DNA from: Prosthecodimorpha hirschii
GTDB lineage: Bacteria > Pseudomonadota > Alphaproteobacteria > Rhizobiales > Ancalomicrobiaceae
DNA length: 64,000 nt
Direction: 5' to 3'
NCBI RefSeq assembly: GCF_001305515.1
Contig: NZ_LJYW01000001.1
Span: 2,381,618-2,445,617 of the forward strand
Shown here piece after piece: positions 34,757-53,978 of this stretch (position 1 is its first letter; each line of letters opens with the position of its first letter). Both the position numbers and the translations under genes were made by a program. A model generated the notes under the pieces. It was not told where the DNA came from, did not search any database, and saw only the letters and a list, made by a program, of their open reading frames with translations.

Positions 34757-34914
34757 GGCGGTCTCCTCGCCTGCCTGAAGACCACGACGCCGCCGCCCGG
34801 GCAAGCCGCCAGGCGACGCGACCCGTCGCATCCGGGGTGTCGATCCGGCCGGTCGACCGTCGACGGCCTTGCGGACGATTGACAGGACGCGGATGCCGCG
34901 CCCATAAACGAGAA

Positions 34915-35125
34915 TGCGTAGGTCCCTCCTTCGAACGAGGGTGAAAAGGGAATGCGGTGATCCCGAAGGGGCTTCGGCCCGGCGGGCTACTCCGCAGCTG
35001 CCCCCGCAACTGTAAGCGGCGAGCTGTGCCGCCGAACGCCACTGGTCCCTCGGGATCGGGAAGGCGGCGGCCTCGGCGACGACCCGCGAGCCAGGAGACC
35101 TGCCGACGCATCCGATCCAGCCAGG
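34915..35125 (+). ncRNA. cobalamin (AdoCbl) riboswitch
   Basis: GGTGAAAAGGGAATGCGGTGA core, downstream B12 box GCCACTG (35038-35044); TTGACA -35-like at 34879; leader of cbtB-cbtA-cobW-cobN. Confidence 0.85.
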
Positions 35126-44084: not shown

Positions 44085-44926
44085 TCGCTGCCTCTGTGGC
44101 TCCGGCGACCGATGCCCCTGCGACCGGGAGTCACGCGACCGGGACTCCGGCGCCCGGGACTCCGGCGACCGGCCGCCTGCGCGTCGTCGGCCTCGGCCCC
44201 GGCCCGGCGCGCTGGCTGACGCCCGAGGCGGCCGAGGCACTCGATGCGGCAACCGATCTGGTCGGCTACGGCCCCTATGTCGACCGGGTGCCCGCGCGGC
44301 CCGGCTTGACCCGCCATGCCACCGACAACCGGGTCGAGATCGACCGCGCCCGCCATGCCCTCGAACTGGCGTCGGCCGGCCGTTCGGTCGCGGTCGTCTC
44401 CGGTGGCGATCCGGGCGTCTTCGCGATGGCGGCGGCCCTGTTCGAGGCGGTCGAGGCCGGCCCGGCGGTATGGCGCGCGCTCGATATCGAGGTCCATCCC
44501 GGCATCAGCGCCATGCAGGCCGCCGCGGCCCGGCTCGGTGCGCCGCTCGGCCACGATTTCTGCGCCATCTCGCTGTCGGACAATCTGAAGCCCTGGGAGC
44601 TCGTGCTGCGCCGGCTGACCGCCGCGGCGACCGGCGATTTCGTGATCGCGCTCTACAATCCCGCCTCCAAGGCGCGGCCCGACCGCATCTTCCAGGCCTT
44701 CGACCACTTGAGGACCCTGAAGGACCCCGCGACCCCGGTCGCCTTCGCGCGCGCGGTCGGCCGGCCGGACGAACGCATCCGCATCGCCGCGCTCGGCAGC
44801 GCCGATCCGGGTCTCGCCGACATGGCGACCCTGGTGATGATCGGCTCCAGCGAGACCCGTCTCATCGACCGGCCCGGCCGCGATCCCTGGATCTACACGC
44901 CGCGCCAGGCCGGGGGCGCCCGGTGA
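44081..44926 (+). CDS. cobJ: precorrin-3B C17-methyltransferase
   Basis: VVGLGPGPARWLTPEA..VVSGGDPGVF motifs. Confidence 0.88.
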   Translation: MIAASVAPATDAPATGSHATGTPAPGTPATGRLRVVGLGPGPARWLTPEAAEALDAATDLVGYGPYVDRVPARPGLTRHATDNRVEIDRARHALELASAGRSVAVVSGGDPGVFAMAAALFEAVEAGPAVWRALDIEVHPGISAMQAAAARLGAPLGHDFCAISLSDNLKPWELVLRRLTAAATGDFVIALYNPASKARPDRIFQAFDHLRTLKDPATPVAFARAVGRPDERIRIAALGSADPGLADMATLVMIGSSETRLIDRPGRDPWIYTPRQAGGAR

Positions 44927-46164
44927 GCGAGGCCGTGCCGGCGCGCTGGCTGACCCTGATCGGTCTCGGCGAGGACGGGCTCGACGGCCTCGCGCCGACG
45001 GCCCGGCGCGTGCTGGCCGATGCCGAGCTGGTCGTCGGCGGCGCCCGCCACCTGCGCCTCGCCGGGCTCGATTCCGATCGGCCCTCGGATTCCGGACCGC
45101 AGCGTCTGGTCTGGCCGTCGCCGCTCGTCGGCGCGATTCCCGACATTCTTGGCTGGCGCGGCCGCCGGGTGGTGGTGCTCGCCTCCGGCGACCCGTTCCA
45201 CTACGGCGTCGGCGCGACGCTCGCCGCCCATGTGCCGGCCGACGAGATGCTCTGCCTGCCGGCCCCGTCCGCCTTCGCGCTCGCCGCCGCGCGGCTCGGC
45301 TGGGGCCAGCAGGATTGCACGCTCCTGTCGCTGCACGGCCGCAGCTTCGAGCGGATCGTGCCCACGCTGCAGCCCGGCGCCCGCATCCTGGCGCTCAGCT
45401 GGGACGGCACCACGCCCGGACGGATCGCCGCGACGCTCGCCGCCCGGGGCCTCGGCGACACCCGCATGACGGTACTCGAATGCCTCGGCGGCCCGCGCGA
45501 ACGCATCCGCACGACGACCGCGGCCGGCTTCGAACTCGACGGCATCGACCCGCTCAACACCGTCGCGCTCGAGGTGGTCGCCGGCCGCGACGCCTGGATC
45601 CTGCCGCGCGCGGCCGGCCTGCCCGACGAGGCCTTCGAGAGCGACGGTCAAATTACCAAGCGCGAGATCCGGGCGATCACGCTGTCCGCACTCGCGCCCC
45701 GGCGCGGCGAACTTCTGTGGGATGTCGGCGCCGGCTCGGGCTCCGTCGGCATCGAATGGATGCTGGCCGACCCAAACCTCGCAACAATCGCGATCGAGCC
45801 GCGCCGCGACCGCGCCGCGCGGATTGCCCGCAACGCGGCCGCGCTCGGCGTGCCGGGTCTCCAAATCGTCGACGGCGCGGCCCCGGCGGCGCTCGCCGGA
45901 CTGCCGACGCCGGACGCGATCTTCGTCGGCGGCGGCGCCACGGCGGAGGGCGTGATCGAGGCCTGTCTGGCGGCGCTGAAGCCCGGCGGGCGATTGGTCG
46001 TCAACGGCGTCACGCTGGAGGCGCAGGCGCGGCTCGGCGACGAGCGGCGTCGGCGCGGCGGCGATCTCATCATGCTGCAGGTGGCGCGGGCCGAACCGCT
46101 CGGCGGCTTTCTCGGCTGGCGACCGGCCATGCCGGTGGTGCAATGGCGGATGGAGAAGCCATGA
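44923..46164 (+). CDS. cobL: precorrin-6Y C5,15-methyltransferase (decarboxylating)
   Basis: GTG start overlapping cobJ stop (GTGA); [11 protein letters not shown]-domain plus C-terminal SAM-MTase [10 protein letters not shown]. Confidence 0.85.
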
Positions 46165-46583
46165 ATCGACGCGGCGCAAGGCTTGCCGTCGGCATCGGCT
46201 GCCGGACCGGGGTCGCGGGACCGGCCGCCGCGGCGCTGATCGAACGGGCGCTGGCGGCGGCGCGCGCGCTTCCCGAAGCGGCCGGCTTCGCGCCGGGCGC
46301 GGCGGTGTTCACGGCTGTGGAGAAGCGCGCCGAGACCGGCCTGGTCGAGGCCGCGAGCCGGCTCGGCCTGGCGCTGGTCTTCCTGCCGCGCAATGCGCTC
46401 GAGGCCGTCTCGGACGGCACCGTGACCCGGTCGGAACGCGTCGTGCAGCTGTTCGGCGTGCCCTCGATCGCCGAGACCGCCGCGCTTGCCGGTGCCGGAC
46501 CGGGCGCACGGCTGATCGTGCCGCGCATGGCCTCGGACGGGATCACCTGCGCGGTCGCGGTGGCGGACGGGAGGGCCGGATGA
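46161..46583 (+). CDS. cobE: cobalamin biosynthesis protein CobE (CbiG C-terminal domain-like)
   Basis: 140 aa [18 protein letters not shown]...; overlaps cobL stop and cobM start. Confidence 0.7.
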
Positions 46584-47353
46584 CGGTGCATTTCATCGGC
46601 GCCGGGCCGGGCGCCCCGGACCTGATCACCCTGCGCGGCCGCGACCTGATCGCCGCCTCGCCGGTCTGCCTCTATGCCGGCTCGCTGGTGCCGGCGGCGC
46701 TGCTCGGCCATTGCCCGCCGGGTGCCCGCATCGTCGATACCGCGCCGCTGTCGCTCGACGAGATCGAGGCCGAATTCGTCCGCGCCGCCGCGGCCGGCCA
46801 GGATGTCGCGCGGCTGCATTCCGGCGACCTGTCGGTCTGGAGCGCGATGGGCGAGCAGATCCGCCGGCTCGACCGGCTCGGCATTGCCTACACGGTGACG
46901 CCCGGCGTGCCGGCCTTCGCGGCCGCCGCCGCGGCGCTGAAGCGCGAACTGACGCTGCCCGAGGTCGGCCAGTCGCTGGTGCTGACCCGCACGCCCGGCC
47001 GTGCCTCCTCGATGCCGCCCGGCGAGACGCTGGCCGGTTTCGCCGCGACCGGGGCGACGCTGGCGGTGCATCTCTCGATCCACGCGCTCGCCGAGGTGGT
47101 CGACAGCCTCGTACCGCATTACGGCCCCGACTGCCCGGTGGCGATCGTCTACCGCGCCTCCTGGCCGGACGAACGCGTGCTGGAAGGCACGCTCGCCAGC
47201 ATCGTCGCGACGGTCGCCGCCGACCCGATCGAGCGGACCGCGCTGATCCTGGTCGGGCCGGTGCTCGGGAAATCAGATTTCCGCGAGAGCGCCCTCTACG
47301 ACCCGGGCTACCAGCGCCGCTACCGCGGCCGCGGCGGACCCGGCGAGGGGTGA
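46580..47353 (+). CDS. cobM: precorrin-4 C11-methyltransferase
   Basis: [20 protein letters not shown] tetrapyrrole methylase. Confidence 0.9.
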
Positions 47354-47656: not shown

Positions 47657-49213
47657 ATGGCCAACAAGTCCCTGTTCGCATCCTATATCGGGAAGCTGCT
47701 CCCGAAGGCGAATGCCAAGAATCGGCACGGGGCGCCGGCCTATGAGCTGTCGCCGCGCCACCGCCTCGCCCAGCTCGCCGCCACCGGCACGCTGAACGCG
47801 ACCTTCTATGCGGATGCCAAGGAGCAGCTCGACGCGATCCTGGCGCTCGCCCGCGAGGTCGACGCGACCTTCATCGCCAAGACGGCGGTCTATGCCCGCC
47901 GCAAGGGGGCGATGAAGGACATGCCGGCGCTCCTGGTCGCGCTCCTGTCGACGATGGCGACCGACCTGTTCGCGCCGGCCTTCGTCCGCACGATCGACAA
48001 CGGCCGCATGCTGCGCACCTTCGTGCAGATCATGCGGTCCGGGGCGGTCGGGCGGAAGTCGCTCGGCACGCGGCCGAAGCGGATGGTCCAGGCCTGGCTC
48101 GAACAGGCCTCCGAGGCCGAGTTGATGCGTGCCGCGGTCGGTGCGGATCCGTCGCTCGCCGACGTCGTCAAGATGGTGCATCCGCGGCCGGCCGATGCCG
48201 GACGGCGCGCCTTCTACGCCTGGCTGATCGGCAAGCCCTATGACGTTGCGGCCCTGCCGCCGCTCGTCACCGCCTTCGAGGCCTTCAAGCGCGATCCCTC
48301 GCTCGAAGTCCCGGAGGTGCCGTTCCAGATGCTGACCTCGATGCCGCTGACCGCGGCGCATTGGGCGGCGATCGCGGAGCGCGGGGGCTGGCAGATGCTG
48401 CGCATGAACATCGCCACCTTCGCGCGCCACGGCGTGTTCGAACGGCCCGGCATGGTCGAGCGGATCGCCCGCCGGCTCGCCGATCCGGCCGAAATCCGCC
48501 GGGCGCGGGCGCTGCCCTACCAGCTCATGGCGGCGCACGCCATGGTGGCCGGGACGGCGCCGGAGCCGATCGTGGCGGCGCTGCAGGACGCGCTGGAGAT
48601 CGCCCTCGCCAACGTGCCGAAGGTCAAGGGGCGCGTGGTCGTCTGCCCGGACGTGTCCGGATCGATGCGCTCCCCGGTGACCGGCTATCGTCGCGGCTCG
48701 ACCACGGCGGTGCGCTGCGTCGACGTGGCGGCGCTGGTGGCGGCGGCCTTCCTGCGCGCCAACCCGGACACGGAGGTGCTGCCGTTCGAGAACGACGTGA
48801 TCAAGCTCCGGCTCGATCCGCGCGACACGGTGACCACCAACGCGGCCAAGCTGGCGGCGATCGGCGGCGGCGGGACCAACTGCTCGGCGCCTCTGGAAAT
48901 GCTCGTCAAGCGGCATGCCAGGGTCGATCTGGTGGTGTTCGTCTCGGACAACGAGTCCTGGGTCGATGCCGCCGAGGCGCGCGGCTCGACGGCGCTGATG
49001 CAGGCCTGGACCCGGCTCAAGTCCTACAACAAGGACGCCAAGCTGGTGTGCATCGACCTGCAGCCCAACGCCACCACGCAGGCCGTCGATCGGCCGGACA
49101 TCCTCAATGTCGGGGGCTTCTCCGACGCGGTGTTCGAAACGATCGGCGCCTTCATGGAGGGCCGCTCCGCCGCCGACCACTGGGTCCGCGAGATCGAGGC
49201 GACCAAGCTCTGA
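47657..49213 (+). CDS. rsr: Ro60 ribonucleoprotein orthologue Rsr (TROVE domain + C-terminal vWA/MIDAS)
   Basis: 518 aa; TROVE-like N-terminal region and vWA motif VVCPDVSGSM...GGGTNCSAP, matching the bacterial Ro60 domain architecture. Confidence 0.8.
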   Translation: MANKSLFASYIGKLLPKANAKNRHGAPAYELSPRHRLAQLAATGTLNATFYADAKEQLDAILALAREVDATFIAKTAVYARRKGAMKDMPALLVALLSTMATDLFAPAFVRTIDNGRMLRTFVQIMRSGAVGRKSLGTRPKRMVQAWLEQASEAELMRAAVGADPSLADVVKMVHPRPADAGRRAFYAWLIGKPYDVAALPPLVTAFEAFKRDPSLEVPEVPFQMLTSMPLTAAHWAAIAERGGWQMLRMNIATFARHGVFERPGMVERIARRLADPAEIRRARALPYQLMAAHAMVAGTAPEPIVAALQDALEIALANVPKVKGRVVVCPDVSGSMRSPVTGYRRGSTTAVRCVDVAALVAAAFLRANPDTEVLPFENDVIKLRLDPRDTVTTNAAKLAAIGGGGTNCSAPLEMLVKRHARVDLVVFVSDNESWVDAAEARGSTALMQAWTRLKSYNKDAKLVCIDLQPNATTQAVDRPDILNVGGFSDAVFETIGAFMEGRSAADHWVREIEATKL

Positions 49214-49214
49214 A

Positions 49215-49376
49215 CCGGCCGGCCGATCCCGATCGGCCGGCCCACCGAACGACACCGCCGGCATCCGCCGGCCGGCCGGTCCCGATCGGCCGGACCACCC
49301 AAAGACGCCGCCGGCATCCGCCGGCCGGCCGATCCTGATCGGCCGGACCACAGAACGATACCGCCGGCATCCGCCG
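49215..49376 (+). repeat. three tandem ~53-bp repeats each with two hairpins (CCGGCCGATC-cc-GATCGGCCGG and GCCGGC-atcc-GCCGGC)
   Basis: Direct reading immediately after rsr stop; units at ~49215, 49268, 49321. Confidence 0.85.
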
Positions 49377-49450
49377 GCTGGGCCGACCGCCCGGCATCGC
49401 CCGGCCGGTCAGGCCATCGACAAGCCCCTGCCGGGTCCGCCCGGCAGGGG

Positions 49451-49528
49451 GGACGGCCGGGGGGAATGCTTCCGGGGACTCCATCGCTTCTCACGATCCA
49501 AAGTCCCAGGGTTTCGTCTCGTCCCCCC
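49451..49528 (+). ncRNA. short Y-RNA-like module 1 (G6-AAUGC ... GGGACU hairpin ... CUCGU-C6)
   Basis: GAATGC 49464-49469, GACTCCATC 49477-49485, hairpin GGGACT/AGTCCC, CTCGT 49518-49522, C6 49523-49528 pairing with G6 49459-49464. Confidence 0.5.
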
Positions 49529-49759
49529 GACCCGCTCTTTCCGGGGCCCTGCCGCCGGGGATCCGCGACGATCCCGGCGGCCGCGCTCCGAGCCGCCCGG
49601 CCGACGACAGTCGGCCGAACGATCATAACTTGCTGACGCCCGTCGGCCGACCGAACCGAACGTGCCGGTATCCGCCGGCCGATTGAAGCGGACCGGTCGG
49701 CAGCGACCGGCCGACCGTCAACCCATCCCTGCCGGGTCCGCCCGGCAGAACCGAAAGCC

Positions 49760-49827
49760 GGGGGGAATGCCTCCGGGGACTCCATCGTTTGTGACGACCC
49801 TGGTCCCCGGTTTCATCTCGTCCCCCC
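49760..49827 (+). ncRNA. short Y-RNA-like module 2
   Basis: Same architecture: G6 49760-65, GAATGC 49765-70, GGGGAC 49775-80 / GTCCCC 49804-09, CTCGT 49817-21, C6 49822-27; embedded in ~210-bp tandem unit. Confidence 0.5.
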
Positions 49828-49971
49828 GACCCGTCCGTCCCGGGTCCCGCCGCGCGCGGTCCTCGGGTGTCCCCGGGGGCGGCACCCCAACCAACCGAGC
49901 GACCGGCCGGCAGCGACCGGTCGGCCGTCAACCCATCCCTGCCGGGTCCGCCCGGCAAAACCGAAAAGGCC

Positions 49972-50038
49972 GGGGGGAATGCCTCCGGGGACTCCATCAC
50001 TCCCATGACCCAGGTCCCCGGAACAAACTCGTCCTCCC
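49972..50038 (+). ncRNA. short Y-RNA-like module 3
   Basis: G6 49972-77, GAATGC 49977-82, GGGGAC/GTCCCC hairpin, CTCGT 50028-32, CCTCCC 50033-38. Confidence 0.5.
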
Positions 50039-50169
50039 GGCTCGCTCTTCCGCCAGCCTCGCGTCCCCCGGCACCCGGATCTCCCGATCCCGGTGCCGGG
50101 GGCGGCGCCGATCAGCCAATGCGAAGCCGTGCCGCCACGTCCGGGCCTCGTGCCCGGGTGCGACGGCTC

Positions 50170-50220
50170 GTGGTTCGATCGAGCCGGATGGCACCCATCC
50201 GGCTCGCGAATCCGAACCAC
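50170..50220 (+). ncRNA. long interrupted stem-loop (8 bp + internal loop + 11 bp, loop CAC)
   Basis: GTGGTTCG-atc-GAGCCGGATGG-cac-CCATCCGGCTC-gcgaat-CGAACCAC. Confidence 0.5.
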
Positions 50221-50247
50221 CAACTCTTTGATGGCGTGGTCAATTCG

Positions 50248-50280
50248 ATCTGACATATGCGGGACGCACATGTCCGATTT
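50248..50280 (+). terminator. candidate rho-independent terminator within the RNA array
   Basis: ACATATGCG-gga-CGCACATGT stem (one mismatch) followed by CCGATTTTG. Confidence 0.4.
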
Positions 50281-50301
50281 TGACCACCAAGGCGGCCCGA
50301 A

Positions 50302-50381
50302 CCGGGCGGAGGGAATGCGGCATGGGACTCCATTCTTTGGGTGAACGACGGTCCCGCGCCTTGACTCGTCCCTCCGACCGG
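50302..50381 (+). ncRNA. short Y-RNA-like module 4
   Basis: terminal stem CCGGGCGGAGG/CCTCCGACCGG (one mismatch), GAATGC 50313-18, GGGAC...GTCCC hairpin, CTCGT 50365-69. Confidence 0.5.
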
Positions 50382-50396
50382 TTCGGACTGCTGTCC

Positions 50397-50530
50397 GGCC
50401 GAGACGAATGCCGAAGGAACTCCATCCAACGTGAATGGCGCGGGTTCAAATCCCGCCGGACCGGCAACGGGCCGTAGCTCAGCGGATAGAGCGTCATGTG
50501 CGATTCCTTCAAAGCCTCGTCGTCTCGGCC
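50397..50530 (+). ncRNA. YrlA-like Y RNA with circularly permuted tRNA-like domain (module 5)
   Basis: 10-bp terminal stem GGCCGAGACG/CGTCTCGGCC and second helix GAAGGAA/TTCCTTC flank internal loop AATGCC / AAAGCCTCGT. The interior holds a T-arm GCGGG-TTCAAAT-CCCGC (50440-56), an acceptor-like stem CGGACCG/CGGGCCG closed by a GCAA tetraloop, and a D-arm TA-GCTC-AGCGGATA-GAGC (50475-92). No anticodon arm; T5 tract follows at 50534-38. Confidence 0.65.
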
Positions 50531-50561
50531 ACCTTTTTCTCGAAACACGCGGCGCTCGGAA

Positions 50562-50729
50562 GGCCGCGGCGAATGCAGGCGGGACTCCATCGGTAAGCCC
50601 CAGGGCGAGAGGTTCGAATCCTCACGCCGGCTGCCGGCAGCACGGTTCGATCGGGCCACCAGGCCCGACCGGCACCGCAATGCTCTCGGCCGGCCGACGT
50701 TAACCCCGCCGCCTCTCGTCGCCGCGACC
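50562..50729 (+). ncRNA. divergent Y-RNA-like module 6 (two T-loop-like motifs, no canonical D-arm)
   Basis: terminal stem GGCCGCGGCG/CGCCGCGACC (one mismatch), GAATGC 50571-76, GGTTCGAATCC at 50611-21 and GGTTCGATC at 50644-52, CTCGT 50715-19. Confidence 0.45.
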
Positions 50730-50766
50730 TCCACCGCGCCGATCCGCAGCCCTATTCCGGCCGCAA

Positions 50767-50929
50767 GGCCGTGACGAATGCCGACGAAACTCCATCATTG
50801 TGCTGACCAGGTCGCGGGTTCGACTCCCGCCGGGTCCACCCTCGGGTGGCCCGTAGCTCAGCGGTAGAGCAGGGGCCGACGGCTCTCCGGAGCCCGAAGC
50901 CACGTTTCGTCCCCCTCGTCGTCACGGCC
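50767..50929 (+). ncRNA. YrlA-like Y RNA with circularly permuted tRNA-like domain (module 7)
   Basis: 10-bp terminal stem GGCCGTGACG/CGTCACGGCC, helix GACGAAA/TTTCGTC, internal loop AATGCC / CCCCTCGT; T-arm GCGGG-TTCGACT-CCCGC (50814-30), acceptor-like stem CGGGTCCACC/GGTGGCCCG closed by CTCG loop, D-arm TA-GCTC-AGCGGTA-GAGC (50854-70). Confidence 0.65.
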
Positions 50930-51159
50930 TCGCCGCCGGAATTGGGAGACCGTGCACTGCCCATTCTATTGTCCCCGCTATTGTTATTGTTAAGTCCACC
51001 ACGCGATATAATACCATTTCAGTCTGCTGGATGCTGTAGCCTAAGTAAGCACTCCGATCATATAAGCCAGACAATTTACTCGTTTACGGACGCAACATAG
51101 TTTGAAATGCGATTCCCGGCTATTCTCGTGAACTCAAAAGAATCAGCGAGGCCCGTCCG

Positions 51160-52398
51160 ATGAAACTAAGTAAAACCGAGATCGGAGAGAAATGGATAAG
51201 GCAATTCGCTATATGCGACCAACCCACGGCGGCCACTATGCTTGACGCGCTTATGTTATTAAATGAAGATCAGGTGTCCATCGCAATTAGGAGCACTCTC
51301 GACAGAATATGTAGAGGTTATCGCCATCGGAATAAGCGAATTGCCCTCTATGCAGAGCGAGAGTTTCAAGAGTCAGAAATTTTTCCTTCCATCCTCACGC
51401 CCGATCGCTACGGAGTACTTCGGCGGCGCGCTGTCGGATCGACAGGACCTTCAGCTGTTAAGCCGTTGCGCAATAGTCCTCGAGTCGGCAGCGAGGGGTT
51501 TATTGCTTTTCTAGCTTCTCAGCAGAAGGATGCATGGCCGAAAATTTTCAAAAACCATCCAGGTCCGGATCGCCTGCGCGCAAAATCGGCGCCGGCAGGC
51601 GAAATTATTATTCTCACGGATTTTATAGGTTCTGGAAATCGCATTCGCTCGATGCTTGATAAATTCTGGTCCGTCCCTAGTATCAAATCTTGGGTCTCGC
51701 GAAAATTAATCACTTTTCGAGTAGTTTCAGCGGCAGCAACAGATTCAGGTTTGAAAAATGTTCGACATCATAGACTAAGACCGGAAGTCATCAGTGAGTG
51801 GATCGCCCCAGTAGTTTATTCTTCTAGTTCACAAAATGTCAAGATCGAATGGTGTCAATTAATTGAAAACTACGGACCCCCGAACGGGCGCGGTTGTGGC
51901 AGATATGGTTTCGGTGGGGAAGCAGCTCTAATAGCATTCAGTTATCGCATTCCAAATAATACTCCTAACATTCTCCACCAAAGCGAAGGCGCATGGCACG
52001 CACTTTACGAGGGGCCCGCACCTACGGCACTATCTGCATTGTTTGGCATCCGCCCAATGTCACAGATCTTACAACTTGCCGCGTCAGCTAATGGAATTAA
52101 ATTGGAACCTTCGTTACTCGAATACGAAAAAAATATGATAATTATCTTAAGTCTTTTGCGCGGACGAATGTACACTGGATCAGAGATAGAATTAGCTGAG
52201 AAATGCGGAATTCCGGTTCCCATCATATTTGATATACTACGCGAAGCCTCGAAGAGAGGATTTATTACGAGCAATGGACGATTAACCGACGACGGCTATA
52301 AGTTTCTAAGGGCCGGCACCATCTGCGACAGGAAAAAACCTATCGTTGCAACTAGGCAAGAATCATATTATCCAAAATCGCTGAGGGTCCCACGATAG
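51160..52398 (+). CDS. retron-associated candidate effector: PRTase-like motif protein with C-terminal winged-helix-like region
   Basis: 412 aa, AT-rich codon usage; IIILTDFIGSGNRI resembles type I phosphoribosyltransferase PRPP-binding loop (hhhhxDhhxxGxx); directly upstream of retron ncRNA/RT, stop TAG embedded in TAGC next to a1. Confidence 0.5.
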   Translation: MKLSKTEIGEKWIRQFAICDQPTAATMLDALMLLNEDQVSIAIRSTLDRICRGYRHRNKRIALYAEREFQESEIFPSILTPDRYGVLRRRAVGSTGPSAVKPLRNSPRVGSEGFIAFLASQQKDAWPKIFKNHPGPDRLRAKSAPAGEIIILTDFIGSGNRIRSMLDKFWSVPSIKSWVSRKLITFRVVSAAATDSGLKNVRHHRLRPEVISEWIAPVVYSSSSQNVKIEWCQLIENYGPPNGRGCGRYGFGGEAALIAFSYRIPNNTPNILHQSEGAWHALYEGPAPTALSALFGIRPMSQILQLAASANGIKLEPSLLEYEKNMIIILSLLRGRMYTGSEIELAEKCGIPVPIIFDILREASKRGFITSNGRLTDDGYKFLRAGTICDRKKPIVATRQESYYPKSLRVPR

Positions 52399-52624
52399 CA
52401 TCTAGACTATGTCATTCGAAAGAATGGCCGTAATTGTGGATACTAATCCACTGTTGTGGGGAATGGAGTTTTCCATTGCCGTTGAAAGAGCACTCGAAAG
52501 CAGGTCCACGCCAGATCGTCCATCATGGCCCTTCGGGCCACCCCCTCGGAATGGCTCGGTTTGATGAACGATCCGGCGCGACTGGGCTGCGCTAAAGTAG
52601 ATGTCACACCCGTGGGACCCTCAG
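52381..52624 (+). ncRNA. retron non-coding RNA (msr-msd) bounded by 14-bp a1/a2 inverted repeats
   Basis: a1 CTGAGGGTCCCACG (52381-94) is exact reverse complement of a2 CGTGGGACCCTCAG (52611-24); TAGC immediately 3' of a1; internal hairpins GTGGAT-acta-ATCCAC, GGAATGGA-gttt-TCCATTgCC, GGCCC-ttc-GGGCC; a2 overlaps first codons of RT. Confidence 0.7.
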
Positions 52625-53755
52625 ACCTTCATATCAGGCGCCCGCAGTTTCGGTATCAGCGCGACAACCATCAACGCCTGCATTGCAACAGCAAATGCAA
52701 TAAAGAGAGTCCACCCCGACCTGCCGGTCATCTTTACGATCGAGCACCTTGCGCATTTAGTTGACGTTAACTCAAGTTTCCTGCAAGAAGTTGCCAATCG
52801 GAAGGTCGATGCATATCGTGTTTTCAGGGTAAAGAAGCGCGGCGTTTCCAATCTTGTGCCCACCCCTTCAAGGCGATACCGAACTATATGCGTACCAGAA
52901 CCGAATCTTATGAGGGTTCAGCGCTGGATAGCGCAAAATATTCTTCAAACAACGTCATCGCATGACGTAAGTTTTGCATTTATCAGGAATCGTGACATCA
53001 CAGATTCAGCGAAGCGCCACACTAATTCAAAGTGGCTAATCAAAATGGATGTGCGGCATTTTTTTGAGTCCATCTCTGAATCGGCAGTTTATCGCGTTTT
53101 TAGGTCTTTTGGGTACGGCGCGCTGCTATCTTTCCAAATGGCACGTATCTGTACACGACTACCCCGCTACAAAGGACGTGATGCTCCGCGGCTTCTCAGC
53201 CGAAGCGGCAAAGTACCATATCGTTCATATCCAATGGGGCACTTGCCACAAGGTGCACCGTCAAGTCCGATGCTTGCAAATCGTGCGGTTGAAGCACTCG
53301 ATTGCAGGCTCCAACGGATAGCACTTGGCGTAGGTTGGACCTACACTAGGTATGCAGATGATTTAGCATTTTCACGCACAACCACCGGAACACGCCACGA
53401 AGCGATGAGGCTGGTCAAACTTGTCGAGTACTCTTTGCGACATCACGGATTGGTGGCGCATCGCCAGAAGACCAGTATATCCCCTCCCGGTGGCAGAAAA
53501 ATTCTCCTAGGTATGCTAGTTGACACAGGTGAACCAAAACTCACTAAGGCGTTTCGTAATAACATCGAGACGCATCTCTATGCCCTTTTGCACAAAGATA
53601 TCGGCGCCGAACGGCATCGTGAGCATCGAGGTTTCTCATCGCTAATTGGAATGCGACGACATATATTAGGGCTGATCGCATACGCCCATCAAGTTAATAG
53701 TAAATACGCCTCTAAGCTTTACAAAAAATTCAATTCCGTTAACTGGATGCTATAG
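52601..53755 (+). CDS. retron-type reverse transcriptase
   Basis: 384 aa. Motifs: YRVFRVKKRG...RTICVPEPNLMRVQRWIAQNIL (RT0-1), LIKMDVRHFFESI (RT2), LPQGAPSSPMLANRAVEALD (RT4), YTRYADDLAFS (YADD, RT5), RKILLGMLVD-TG (retron VTG-region analogue). Start may be downstream of annotated ATG because it overlaps a2. Confidence 0.85.
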   Translation: MSHPWDPQTFISGARSFGISATTINACIATANAIKRVHPDLPVIFTIEHLAHLVDVNSSFLQEVANRKVDAYRVFRVKKRGVSNLVPTPSRRYRTICVPEPNLMRVQRWIAQNILQTTSSHDVSFAFIRNRDITDSAKRHTNSKWLIKMDVRHFFESISESAVYRVFRSFGYGALLSFQMARICTRLPRYKGRDAPRLLSRSGKVPYRSYPMGHLPQGAPSSPMLANRAVEALDCRLQRIALGVGWTYTRYADDLAFSRTTTGTRHEAMRLVKLVEYSLRHHGLVAHRQKTSISPPGGRKILLGMLVDTGEPKLTKAFRNNIETHLYALLHKDIGAERHREHRGFSSLIGMRRHILGLIAYAHQVNSKYASKLYKKFNSVNWML

Positions 53756-53978
53756 TAAATTAATGTTTTATTTTCAAATTGCACTAAGTGAATAATATAT
53801 AGTGAGAATCTGGGGTAAGAATTTTGATTCTTGAATGAATTCGCATCTACGTAAAAGATGCCCCACCCCTACGCCTTTCCCCTCATCTCCCCCGTTGACA
53901 CCCGTCCGCCGCCATCCTAACCTCCTTTCAAATAACAAAACGTCGTTTCATATAATGAAATGACCGGGACGGAAACAG

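What the first reader, a model, noticed from the sequence alone, without database searches (positions are those of the whole stretch)
49459..50929. Conserved asymmetric internal-loop signature AAUGC(C) / (C)CUCGU shared by all seven modules
Every module, short or long, places GAATGC right after the 5' strand of its terminal helix, a (G/A)ACUCCAU element 6-8 nt later, and CTCGT immediately before the 3' strand of the terminal helix. Modules 5 and 7 additionally share a second helix (GAAGGAA/TTCCTTC; GACGAAA/TTTCGTC), so the motif forms a helix-loop-helix. Conservation across otherwise divergent modules suggests a protein-binding site, possibly the Rsr-binding element analogous to the bulged helix of eukaryotic Y RNAs.
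Basis: seen in the sequence. Interest (0 to 1): 0.6.

Follow-up and report, generated by a model that had tools for sequence, protein, structure and literature searches.

The report
Ro60-binding site of seven Y RNAs
The repeated motif is real: it is the already-described docking site for the Ro60 (Rsr) protein, present in seven small non-coding "Y RNAs" encoded in a row just after the Ro60 gene, so this is a large but ordinary example of a known system.

Summary
GAATGC-N(5-9)-ACTCCAT occurs seven times on the + strand, all in 49464-50795, and nowhere else in the window. Each copy sits in a module closed by an 8-12 bp terminal helix, with CTCG directly before the helix's 3' strand.

The gene ending 245 nt upstream (47657-49213) is a Ro60/Rsr orthologue. 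Rfam aligns M5 full-length to YrlA (55.5 bits, E 2.5e-11), the tRNA-like core of M7 to YrlA, and M1-M4 full-length to YrlB. All are below the curated cut-offs. Both Rfam consensus sequences already carry GaAUGC ... YUuG-UC.

In 80 other rsr loci (58-71% Rsr identity) the same signature recurs 1-8 times per locus (median 4), always on the rsr strand and nearly always within 2 kb downstream of rsr. P1 and P2 covary strongly. ACUCCAU is a clade-specific variant of the family-wide ACUACA(U/G), the published "YUAY" kink.

So this is the known Rsr/Ro60-binding module of bacterial Y RNAs, which overlaps the published GNCGAAN0-1G motif.

Modestly new:
- seven modules in one array (four hairpin-type, two tRNA-like, one with a T arm only), none reaching Rfam thresholds;
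- a conserved 3'-strand YUYG, although the literature says only the 5' strand is recognisable.

The parts
47657..49213 (+). rsr, the Ro60 orthologue (518 aa) and presumed protein partner
   Evidence: Pfam vWA_Ro60 4e-20 and TROVE. Full-length match to PDB 2NVO Rsr at 6e-24, and also to 9L5Y/9KOP phage Ro60 and 1YVP Xenopus Ro60. Homologues at 58-71% identity across Hyphomicrobiales, Rhodospirillales and Burkholderiales.
49214..49457 (+). Structured spacer between rsr and M1: three tandem 53-nt hairpin units (49215-49388) plus the hairpin CUGCCGGGUCCGCCCGGCAG (49428-49447). No Rsr signature.
   Evidence: family D1. MFE -153 kcal/mol, z -6.1. These repeats occur only inside the array in this window.
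49458..49529 (+). M1, short hairpin-type (YrlB-like) Y RNA module. P1 49458-49465/49522-49529; GAATGC 49464-49469; GACTCCAT 49477-49484; P2 49471-49480/49502-49511; CTCGT 49518-49522.
   Evidence: Rfam YrlB full-length, 21.4 bits. Model R1, 56.4 bits. BLAST relatives in Hyphomicrobiaceae loci L051 and L074.
49759..49828 (+). M2, short module and recent duplicate of M1. GAATGC 49765-49770; GACTCCAT 49778-49785; P2 49773-49781/49802-49810; CTCGT 49817-49821.
   Evidence: Rfam YrlB 25.6 bits. Lies inside a 301-bp tandem duplication (D6).
49968..50042 (+). M3, short module and third copy of the M1-M3 duplication. GAATGC 49977-49982; GACTCCAT 49990-49997; P2 49984-49993/50013-50022; CTCGT 50028-50032.
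   Evidence: Rfam YrlB 23.6 bits. Duplication families D4 and D7.
50307..50376 (+). M4, divergent short module (extended stem arms 50292-50314/50369-50391). GAATGC 50313-50318; GACTCCAT 50326-50333; P2 50319-50329/50350-50360; CTCGT 50365-50369.
   Evidence: (I9). Rfam YrlB 27.3 bits, E 0.0088. P1 differs from M1-M3 by a compensatory pair (GGAGGGA/UCCCUCC).
50397..50530 (+). M5, YrlA-type tRNA-like Y RNA. P1 50397-50407/50520-50530; GAATGC 50406-50411; P2 GAAGGAA 50413-50419 / TTCCTTC 50504-50510; AACTCCAT 50418-50425; T arm 50440-50456; D arm 50474-50492; CTCGT 50516-50520.
   Evidence: Rfam YrlA full-length 1-114, 55.5 bits, E 2.5e-11, below the gathering score of 69. Coordinates.
50565..50726 (+). 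M6, long module with a T-arm-like hairpin (GAGG-UUCGAAU-CCUC, about 50607-50621) but no D arm. GAATGC 50571-50576; GACTCCAT 50583-50590; CTCGT 50715-50719; P1 50565-50572/50719-50726.
   Evidence: No YrlA hit. BLAST matches cover only its 5' ~60 nt. P2 register is ambiguous (AGGCGG/CCGCCU or GGCGGG/CCCGCC).
50766..50930 (+). M7, YrlA-type tRNA-like Y RNA with a long stem (arms extend to 50750-50777/50919-50946). GAATGC 50776-50781; P2 GACGAAAC 50783-50790 / GTTTCGTC 50904-50911; AACTCCAT 50788-50795; T arm 50814-50830; D arm 50853-50870; CTCGT 50915-50919.
   Evidence: Rfam YrlA core (model positions 24-84), 39.7 bits, E 9e-7. I3. Relatives at 74-83% identity in other rsr loci, e.g. L059, L011 and L004.
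50043..50306 (+). Structured spacer between M3 and M4: several long hairpins without the signature.
   Evidence: MFE -145.7 kcal/mol, z -6.4. No credible Rfam match in this stretch.

Best explanation
The 1.5-kb stretch after rsr encodes seven bacterial Y RNAs of the YrlA/YrlB type, probably made as one precursor with rsr and then cut apart. The shared signature is their common Rsr/Ro60-binding module.

**Architecture of the module.** The 5' and 3' ends pair (P1), always ending in G-C and A-U. P1 opens into an asymmetric internal loop, 5'-AUGC(N) opposite 3'-(N3-5)YUYG. The loop is closed by a second helix P2, whose top is G-N-G-A-N. A conserved U(A/C) kink/bulge and CA follow.

**Proposed mechanism.** By analogy with X. 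laevis Ro60-Y RNA and D. radiodurans Rsr-Yrn1, the ring-shaped Rsr binds this module on its outer surface, mainly by reading the 5' strand (G-A-A-U-G). The variable distal part of each RNA then offers a different effector-binding or gating surface: a small hairpin in M1-M4, a tRNA-like T/acceptor/D domain in M5 and M7, and a T arm plus other hairpins in M6. PNPase is the known effector in other bacteria.

**Shown here:** the sequence signature, the helices with covariation, linkage to rsr, and homology to YrlA/YrlB.

**Inferred:** transcription and processing, Rsr binding, and any effector.
For: - **Partner gene.** The array starts 245 nt after the stop codon of a Ro60/Rsr gene, on the same strand.
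- **Rfam.** M5 aligns to YrlA full-length (E 2.5e-11), M7 to the YrlA core (E 9e-7), and M1-M4 to YrlB full-length (E 0.009-0.4). The consensus sequences read 'CgaAUGC...cUuGucG' and 'GaAUGC...UUUGuCg'.
- **Unbiased anchor scan.** In the 80 other rsr loci plus this window, searching only for GAATG plus a P1 of at least 7 bp finds 291 modules within 3 kb 3' of rsr on its strand, against 55 chance hits on the opposite strand. Of the 291:
  - 95% have C after GAAUG;
  - 83% have YU(Y/G)G before the 3' strand of P1;
  - 88% have A-N-U-N-C-A at +8 to +22;
  - the opposite-strand controls score 0/55 for the last two features.
- **Covariation.** On 148 distinct covariance-model hits, 95.4% of cells pair, against 29-66% for slid partners. 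There are 389 double-sided changes, and 0 of 500 shuffles reach the observed value. The last two P1 pairs are G-C in 146/148 and A-U in 148/148.
- **P2.** True partners give 7.4 bp on average, against 5.3 bp when the 3' halves are swapped between loci.
- **Literature.**
  - PMC4201824: the GNCGAAN0-1G motif as the likely Rsr site; Rsr footprint on Yrn1 at G7, G8, C9, G11, A12; YrlA within 4 kb of rsr on the same strand; polycistronic precursors.
  - bioRxiv 10.1101/312249: a modular Rsr-binding stem and a conserved UA kink.
  - PMC12135203: a conserved CGAA motif in an internal bulge of phage Yrl RNAs that bind phage Ro60 in EMSA.
- **Transcription signals.** No sigma-70-like promoter or intrinsic terminator lies between rsr and M7 on the + strand, consistent with co-transcription.
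Against: - None of the seven modules reaches Rfam's curated gathering scores (YrlA 69, YrlB 97).
- M1-M4 have G instead of C in GNCGAA (GGGGAAUG / AGGGAAUG).
- No expression or binding data exist for this organism.
- M1-M3 are recent tandem duplicates (85-94% identical including flanks), so within the window they count as one observation.
- The covariance-model alignment leans towards its own structure, and P1 in the anchor scan was selected for pairing.
- The published Rsr-site assignment for YrlA-type RNAs is itself inferential.
Confidence: 0.85

Rival explanations
1. The signature is mainly an RNA-processing or stability determinant (a site recognised by RNase III, RNase E, RNase P or a similar enzyme) used to excise or protect individual RNAs from a polycistronic rsr transcript, rather than the Rsr contact surface.
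For: - No promoters or terminators lie between modules.
- Y RNAs are made from polycistronic precursors in D. radiodurans and M. smegmatis, and M. smegmatis YrlA is cut by RNase P (PMC4201824).
- The spacers are densely structured.
Against: - The conserved nucleotides lie inside the mature stem, 8-12 bp from the module ends, not at the boundaries.
- They overlap the motif equivalent to nucleotides footprinted by Rsr in Yrn1 and contacted by Ro60 in 1YVP (PMC4201824).
- The two roles are not mutually exclusive.
Confidence: 0.07
2. The shared motif in this window reflects only common descent of recently duplicated units (or gene conversion), without a specific functional constraint.
For: - M1-M3 sit in 210-301 bp tandem duplications at 85-94% identity (D4, D6, D7).
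- All seven modules carry exactly the same variants (CUCG, ACUCCAU), whereas arrays in other genomes mix variants.
Against: - M4-M7 share little beyond the signature and the tRNA-like arms.
- Their P1 and P2 sequences differ through compensatory changes.
- M5 and M7 each have their own relatives in distant genomes.
- The signature is nearly invariant across 148 distinct modules from Alpha- and Betaproteobacteria and Acidobacteria.
Confidence: 0.04
3. The modules are a dispersed repeat family (REP or MITE-like), or degenerate tRNA pseudogenes, that happen to lie next to rsr.
For: - The region is rich in GC-rich hairpin repeats.
- M5 and M7 contain T- and D-arm sequences.
Against: - There are no copies elsewhere in the 64 kb window on either strand.
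- All 155 covariance-model hits in 908 kb are on the rsr strand, and almost all lie within 2 kb 3' of rsr.
- Of 120 metagenome stretches with the bare 14-nt pattern, only 3 have the module architecture, and all 3 lie directly 3' of an rsr gene.
- ARAGORN finds no tRNA; the T arm precedes the D arm, as in YrlA.
Confidence: 0.02

Closest known systems
YrlA (Rfam RF02553; S. Typhimurium and M. smegmatis Y RNA-like A; Chen et al. 2014, PMC4201824; Wang et al. 2018, bioRxiv 10.1101/312249)
   Same: - Encoded next to rsr on the same strand.
- The 5'/3' stem carries GNCGAA-U-G (M5-M7: GACGAAUG, GGCGAAUG, GACGAAUG).
- Internal loop, then a second helix, then the YUAY element.
- Permuted tRNA-like domain, T arm then acceptor-like stem then D arm, in M5 and M7.
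   Different: - Scores fall below the Rfam cut-off (55.5 and 39.7 against 69).
- The YUAY element is CUCC, not CUAC, in all seven modules.
- M7 has a much longer stem and extra hairpins.
- There are three T-arm-bearing RNAs here, not one.
YrlB (Rfam RF02565; S. Typhimurium; and M. smegmatis YrlB, D. radiodurans Yrn2: 'long hairpin with small loop' Y RNAs)
   Same: M1-M4 align end to end with the same layout: P1, AUGC loop, P2 ending GGGA-N, a two-nucleotide bulge (UA, here UC), a CAU-containing apical hairpin, and a 3' loop ending YUYG.
   Different: - Only 21-27 bits against a cut-off of 97; the Rfam seed is Salmonella-specific.
- M1-M4 have GGA/UCC rather than CGA/UCG closing P1.
- There are four copies.
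D. radiodurans rsr locus (Yrn1, Yrn2 and small RNAs a, b, d; PMC4201824)
   Same: Several small RNAs clustered beside rsr and made from a polycistronic precursor. Some have only a T arm (like M6).
   Different: - In Deinococcus the RNAs lie upstream of rsr.
- Both strands of the metazoan-like helix are retained there.
- RNAs a, b and d bind Rsr less strongly than Yrn1 and fold less like other Y RNAs; here all seven share one signature.
Metazoan Y RNA Ro60-binding helix (GGUCCGA / UUGACC with a bulged C; Stein et al. 2005, PDB 1YVP, cited from PMC4201824)
   Same: A terminal stem formed by the RNA ends with a conserved 5' strand (CGA), next to an asymmetric internal loop and a second stem; it works as the Ro60 docking module.
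   Different: - No bulged C.
- The conserved nucleotides extend into the loop (AUGC / YUYG).
- No Rfam Y_RNA hit at E<=10.
- Homology of the RNAs is not established.
Thermus phage phiLo Yrl1/Yrl2 (PMC12135203)
   Same: Y RNA-like RNAs beside a Ro60 gene, identified by a CGAA motif in an internal bulge with a stem-bulge-stem layout. Binding to phage Ro60 was shown by EMSA.
   Different: They are phage-encoded, lie upstream of the gene, and number two rather than seven. I did not compare them at the sequence level.

Membership tests
Bacterial Y RNA, YrlA type (Chen et al. 2014 criteria) | Encoded within about 4 kb of the Ro60/rsr gene on the same strand | tested here: met
   rsr is 47657-49213 (+). 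The modules span 49458-50930 (+).
Bacterial Y RNA, YrlA type (Chen et al. 2014 criteria) | GNCGAAN0-1G motif near the 5' end | tested here: met
   M5 GACGAAUG, M6 GGCGAAUG, M7 GACGAAUG. M1-M4 deviate at the C (GGGGAAUG, AGGGAAUG) with a compensating change on the 3' strand. Across 148 modules this pair is C-G 111, G-C 20, U-A 15.
Bacterial Y RNA, YrlA type (Chen et al. 2014 criteria) | Long stem formed by pairing of the 5' and 3' ends | tested here: met
   8-12 uninterrupted bp in all seven modules, with arms up to 28 nt. 7 of the 8 P1 pairs show double-sided changes.
Bacterial Y RNA, YrlA type (Chen et al. 2014 criteria) | tRNA-like domain: T arm, acceptor-like stem, D arm | tested here: met
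   Met for M5 and M7: GCGGGUUCAAAUCCCGC / GUAGCUCAGCGGAUAGAGC, and GCGGGUUCGACUCCCGC / GUAGCUCAGCGGUAGAGC. M6 has a T arm only. M1-M4 have none, so those five are not YrlA in the strict sense.
Rfam RF02553 YrlA | Score at or above the curated gathering threshold (69 bits) | tested here: not met
   M5 scores 55.5 bits and the M7 core 39.7 bits. There is no hit at gathering level in the window. In 12 related loci at most one module per locus passes.
Rfam RF02565 YrlB | Score at or above the curated gathering threshold (97 bits) | tested here: not met
   M1-M4 score 21.4-27.3 bits in full-length alignments.
Any Y RNA | Bound by Ro60/Rsr in vivo or in vitro; stability depends on Rsr | not testable with these tools
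   Needs immunoprecipitation, EMSA or an rsr deletion.
Metazoan Y RNA (Rfam RF00019) | Bulged helix GGUCCGA / UUGACC and a covariance-model match | tested here: not met
   The P1 end is a perfect helix (..CGA/UCG.. or ..GGA/UCC..) with no bulged C. There is no Y_RNA hit at E<=10 in 49100-51100.
REP / MITE-type dispersed repeat | Many copies dispersed in the genome, on either strand, unlinked to a particular gene | tested here: not met
   The signature occurs only in the array within the 64 kb window. In 80 other loci every hit is on the rsr strand next to rsr. A whole-genome test was not possible.

The most novel reading that the evidence does not exclude
Rsr recognition in proteobacterial Y RNAs may use a three-part platform that is nearly invariant on both strands: the 5' GA-AUGC, the 3' YUYG-UC, and the GA-N-U(A/C)CA kink at the top of P2. 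Published descriptions have only the 5' GNCGAA strand. Genomes would then keep arrays of up to eight paralogous Y RNAs (seven here, median four). These share the platform but carry different distal domains, forming a set of interchangeable adaptors that compete for one Rsr ring and direct it to different effectors or substrates. Standard annotation misses most of these RNAs, because Rfam thresholds catch at most one per locus.
Probability: 0.35. Interest if true: 0.5.

Novelty: new member of a known kind. Interest (0 to 1): 0.3.

Why it matters

The modest added value is threefold.

1. Current Rfam thresholds miss every one of the seven RNAs here and most modules in related genomes.
2. Multi-member Y RNA arrays (median 4, up to 8) are the rule in the rsr loci sampled here: Hyphomicrobiales, Rhodospirillales, Burkholderiales and a few from other phyla. 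The characterised species are described as having "at least two".
3. The 3' strand element YUYG and the GA-N-UAC-A element are as conserved as the published 5' motif. This gives precise targets for mutagenesis of the Rsr-Y RNA interface.

An organism with seven Y RNAs of three architectures and one Rsr would be a good system for asking what the distal domains recruit.

Tried and rejected
- **Rfam at gathering thresholds.** Only the cobalamin riboswitch at 34903-35121 was found and nothing in the array. The YrlA/YrlB relationship appeared only with E-value thresholds.
- **ARAGORN.** No tRNA or tmRNA was found; the tRNA-like domains are permuted.
- **Metagenome scan with GAATGC-N5-8-GACTCCAT.** It returned 120 stretches, but 117 are chance matches to a 14-nt pattern, with no P1/YUYG architecture and no rsr. 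Only 3 are real modules, all beside rsr. This was useful as a small independent check but a poor source of relatives.
- **Model R1.** Built from short modules, it does not pick up M5-M7 in the window with default filters, so the long modules rest on Rfam and the anchor scan.
- **First control for element 2.** The control set was contaminated by my own bookkeeping; I redid it with opposite-strand hits only.
- **Reviews not held.** PMC10870794 and PMC6542706, which might state Y RNA copy numbers, are not in the library. The supplements of Chen 2014 are not held either. I therefore cannot exclude that large arrays have already been tabulated.
- **Extra pairing of AUG with the CGU/CAU upstream of CUCG.** It appears in the MFE folds of M1 and M2 but is absent in M3-M7, so I rejected it as a family feature.
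- **K-turn or sarcin-ricin-type loop motifs.** The sequences do not fit their consensus (my own knowledge, not tested).
- **Island att sites.** I looked for direct repeats flanking the downstream low-GC island as evidence of integration at the tRNA-like M7 and found none convincing.
Full report
**1. The observation**

I read 48800-51600 and scanned the whole window. GAATGC followed 5-9 nt later by ACTCCAT occurs seven times on the + strand (G of GAATGC at 49464, 49765, 49977, 50313, 50406, 50571, 50776) and never on the - strand. All seven + strand ACTCCAT in the 64 kb belong to these sites. Dinucleotide-preserving shuffles give 0.00 expected matches even for the narrower N5-7 pattern, which matches M5-M7.

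From each site I extended pairing outward, starting with the first A of GAATGC and the T of the nearest downstream CTCGT. This gives uninterrupted terminal helices of 8-12 bp and the following module limits:

| Module | Coordinates | Length (nt) |
|---|---|---|
| M1 | 49458-49529 | 72 |
| M2 | 49759-49828 | 70 |
| M3 | 49968-50042 | 75 |
| M4 | 50307-50376 | 70 |
| M5 | 50397-50530 | 134 |
| M6 | 50565-50726 | 162 |
| M7 | 50766-50930 | 165 |

Imperfect extensions lengthen the arms to 23 nt for M4 and 28 nt for M7 (I9 and I3). The helix sequences differ between modules through compensatory changes (GGGGGGA/UCCCCCC, GGAGGGA/UCCCUCC, GAGACGA/UCGUCUC, GCGGCGA/UCGCCGC, GUGACGA/UCGUCAC).

- GA of GAAUGC and UC (the U of CUCGU plus the next C) form the last two pairs of the helix. 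The loop proper is 5'-AUGC(N0-2) opposite 3'-(N3-7)CUCG.
- The spacer to the second element is 6-7 nt.
- Every module, not just M5 and M7, has a second helix P2 of 6-10 bp.

**2. What surrounds it**

The ORF ending at 49213, 245 nt upstream on the same strand, has the Ro60 vWA and TROVE domains. It matches D. radiodurans Rsr (PDB 2NVO) over its full length, and also phage and vertebrate Ro60 structures.

Rfam finds nothing in the array at gathering thresholds. With E-value thresholds it aligns:
- M5 end to end with YrlA (55.5 bits, E 2.5e-11, cut-off 69);
- the T arm, acceptor-like stem and D arm of M7 with YrlA (39.7 bits);
- M1-M4 end to end with YrlB (21-27 bits, cut-off 97).

In those alignments the family consensus itself reads 'CgaAUGCuuggGgaaCUAc ... 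cUuGucGccg' (YrlA) and 'GcGaAUGC..GGGAUUACAUc ... UUUGuCgcgC' (YrlB).

ARAGORN finds no tRNA. This is expected, because in YrlA the T arm precedes the D arm.

No sigma-70-like promoter or intrinsic terminator lies on the + strand between rsr and the end of M7.

**3. Related loci**

The Rsr protein has thousands of homologues. The closest named ones are from Labrys, Methylocystis, Mesorhizobium and relatives at 64-71% identity. With an alignment of 24 of them I fetched 80 rsr loci from one-genome-per-species contigs. The closest are Inquilinus spp. at 70-71%.

*An anchor that uses neither CUCG nor ACUCCAU.* To avoid circularity I searched these loci and the window with GAATG preceded by a strand that can form at least 7 bp (at most one G-U) with a partner 35-300 nt downstream.
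- This finds 291 modules within 3 kb 3' of rsr on its strand, 59 elsewhere on that strand, and 55 on the opposite strand.
- Of the 291, the base after GAAUG is C in 95%.
- The four bases before the 3' strand of P1 are C 72% / U 88% / Y 88% / G 89%; CUUG occurs 101 times, CUCG 86 and UUUG 30.
- The controls show no such bias. In the 55 opposite-strand chance hits, YU(Y/G)G occurs 0 times and the second element 0 times, against 83% and 88% of the 291.

*The second element.* It is ACUACA(U/G) in most genomes, 171 of 232 clean modules. The ACUCCA form seen in all seven window modules is a minority variant. It is shared with the Inquilinus-like loci L002, L004, L008 and L011 and occurs sporadically in L035 and L054.

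**4. Structure**

- *P2.* True partners form a contiguous helix of 7.4 bp on average. When 3' halves are swapped between loci the value is 5.3 bp, and 170 of 269 true pairs reach 8 bp or more. The usual geometry is AUGC plus one nucleotide on the 5' side and 3-5 nt plus YUYG on the 3' side.
- *RNAalifold.* On 28 short modules it recovers P1 and the top 5 bp of P2.
- *Covariance model.* A model built on that alignment (R1) finds 155 matches at E<=0.001 in 908 kb. All are on the rsr strand and almost all lie within 2 kb 3' of rsr.
- *Pair counts on the resulting alignment of 148 distinct sequences.* 95.4% of cells pair, against 29-66% when partners are slid by 1-3 columns. 11 of 13 pairs show double-sided changes (389 cells), and 0 of 500 shuffles reach the observed covariation.
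- *Invariant positions.* The two pairs closing P1 are G-C (146/148) and A-U (148/148). The loop and flanking positions are almost invariant: A148 U147 G148 C146 ... G A N U (A135/C13) C148 A146 ... Y U147 Y G148 U148 C146.
- *The published C.* The C of the published GNCGAA motif varies with its partner (C-G 111, G-C 20, U-A 15). At that position the pair seems to matter rather than the base. This accommodates the GGA/UCC closing of M1-M4.

These counts lean towards the model's structure, and P1 in the anchor scan was selected for pairing. P2, YUYG and the second element were not selected.

**5. Interpretation**

Chen et al. 2014 (PMC4201824) defined YrlA-type Y RNAs by three features: proximity to rsr on the same strand, a GNCGAAN0-1G motif near the 5' end, and a tRNA-like domain.
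- They proposed the motif as the Rsr contact because it overlaps nucleotides needed for and protected by Rsr binding in D. radiodurans Yrn1, and resembles the GGUCCGA contacted by X. laevis Ro60.
- They also noted a conserved YUAY at the start of the variable loop.

Wang et al. 2018 (bioRxiv 10.1101/312249) showed that the conserved UA forms a kink between the Rsr-binding module and the tRNA-like module. A 2025 study of a Thermus phage Ro60 used the 'conserved CGAA motif' in an internal bulge to find two Yrl RNAs that bind the protein (PMC12135203).

- GAAUGC is the 3' part of GNCGAAN0-1G plus a conserved C.
- (G/A)ACUCCAU is the top of P2, plus the YUAY kink (here CUCC), plus the start of the next stem.
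- CUCGU is the 3' loop strand plus the first P1 nucleotide.

The signature is therefore the Rsr/Ro60-binding module of seven Y RNAs: four hairpin-type (YrlB-like), two tRNA-like (YrlA-type), and one with only a T arm. The most likely mechanism is that Rsr docks on this module while the variable distal domains engage different partners. Binding, expression and processing are inferred, not shown.

**6. Rivals**

- *Processing signal.* It cannot be excluded as an additional role, but the conserved bases lie deep in the stem rather than at module boundaries.
- *Pure common descent.* It holds for M1-M3, which sit in 210-301 bp tandem duplications. It fails for M4-M7 and for the cross-phylum conservation. 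M5 and M7 each have their own relatives in distant genomes.
- *Dispersed repeat family.* This is contradicted, and by the metagenome scan. Of 120 stretches with the bare 14-nt pattern, only three have the module architecture, and all three lie directly 3' of rsr.

**7. Novelty**

The motif and its assignment are known, and the locus is a new member of a known kind. Three points go slightly beyond what I could find in the accessible literature.
- Arrays are the norm: 1-8 modules per locus, median 4. The window, with 7, is near the top.
- Rfam gathering thresholds detect at most one YrlA per locus in 12 related loci and none here.
- The 3' YUYG is as conserved as the 5' strand.

I could not read the two reviews or the supplements that might already list copy numbers.

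**8. Scores**

- Confidence in the main explanation: 0.85.
- Interest: 0.3.

Noticed in passing
window 50950-53870: A low-GC island (43-52% against about 70% for the flanks) begins immediately after the 3' stem of the tRNA-like module M7. It carries a type III-A retron gene pair: a PRTase-CE + wHTH protein (51160-52398; PADLOC PRTase_III-A 4e-102) and a reverse transcriptase (52601-53755; PADLOC RT_III-A 6e-162). No integrase or clear flanking direct repeat was found, and I did not look for the msr/msd RNA. The island may have inserted next to a tRNA-like gene.
   Followed up: partly
window 49214-49457 and 50043-50306: The spacers of the array are themselves unusually structured (MFE z-scores -6.1 and -6.4). 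They contain three tandem 53-nt hairpin units after the rsr stop codon, a hairpin CUGCCGGGUCCGCCCGGCAG repeated before each of M1-M3, and several long hairpins between M3 and M4. One of those has GGUUCGAUCGAGCC, which resembles a stretch of M6. None carries the Rsr signature, and they occur only in the array within this window.
   Followed up: partly
L072:7686-7759; L002:6913-7053; L004:6929-7068: In a Hyphomicrobiaceae MAG a genuine tRNA (Rfam 69.4 bits) sits inside the Y RNA array, as with tRNA-Asp between Yrn2 and Yrn1 in D. radiodurans. In the Inquilinus-like loci L002 and L004 (L004 is titled Mycobacterium sp. KBS0706) Rfam also reports weak 140-nt 'tRNA' hits that start within one module and extend into the next one.
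   Followed up: no
window 34903-35121: A cobalamin riboswitch (Rfam 129.8 bits) lies on the + strand about 10 kb before the cobalamin-biosynthesis genes I checked (CbiG and tetrapyrrole methylases, 44470-47353), which lie just before rsr.
   Followed up: no
L004 (NZ_VCCH02000080.1, titled Mycobacterium sp. KBS0706): The rsr locus and Y RNA array of this record closely resemble those of Inquilinus spp. (L002, L008, L011): a similar series of modules, ending in the same 173-174-nt last module. The organism name of the record looks inconsistent with its content.
   Followed up: no
window 50648-50703 (- strand): A sub-threshold Rfam match to c4-a1b1 (25.3 bits, E 0.0011, cut-off 46.7) lies on the strand opposite M6. 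It is probably a chance match to GC-rich hairpins.
   Followed up: no
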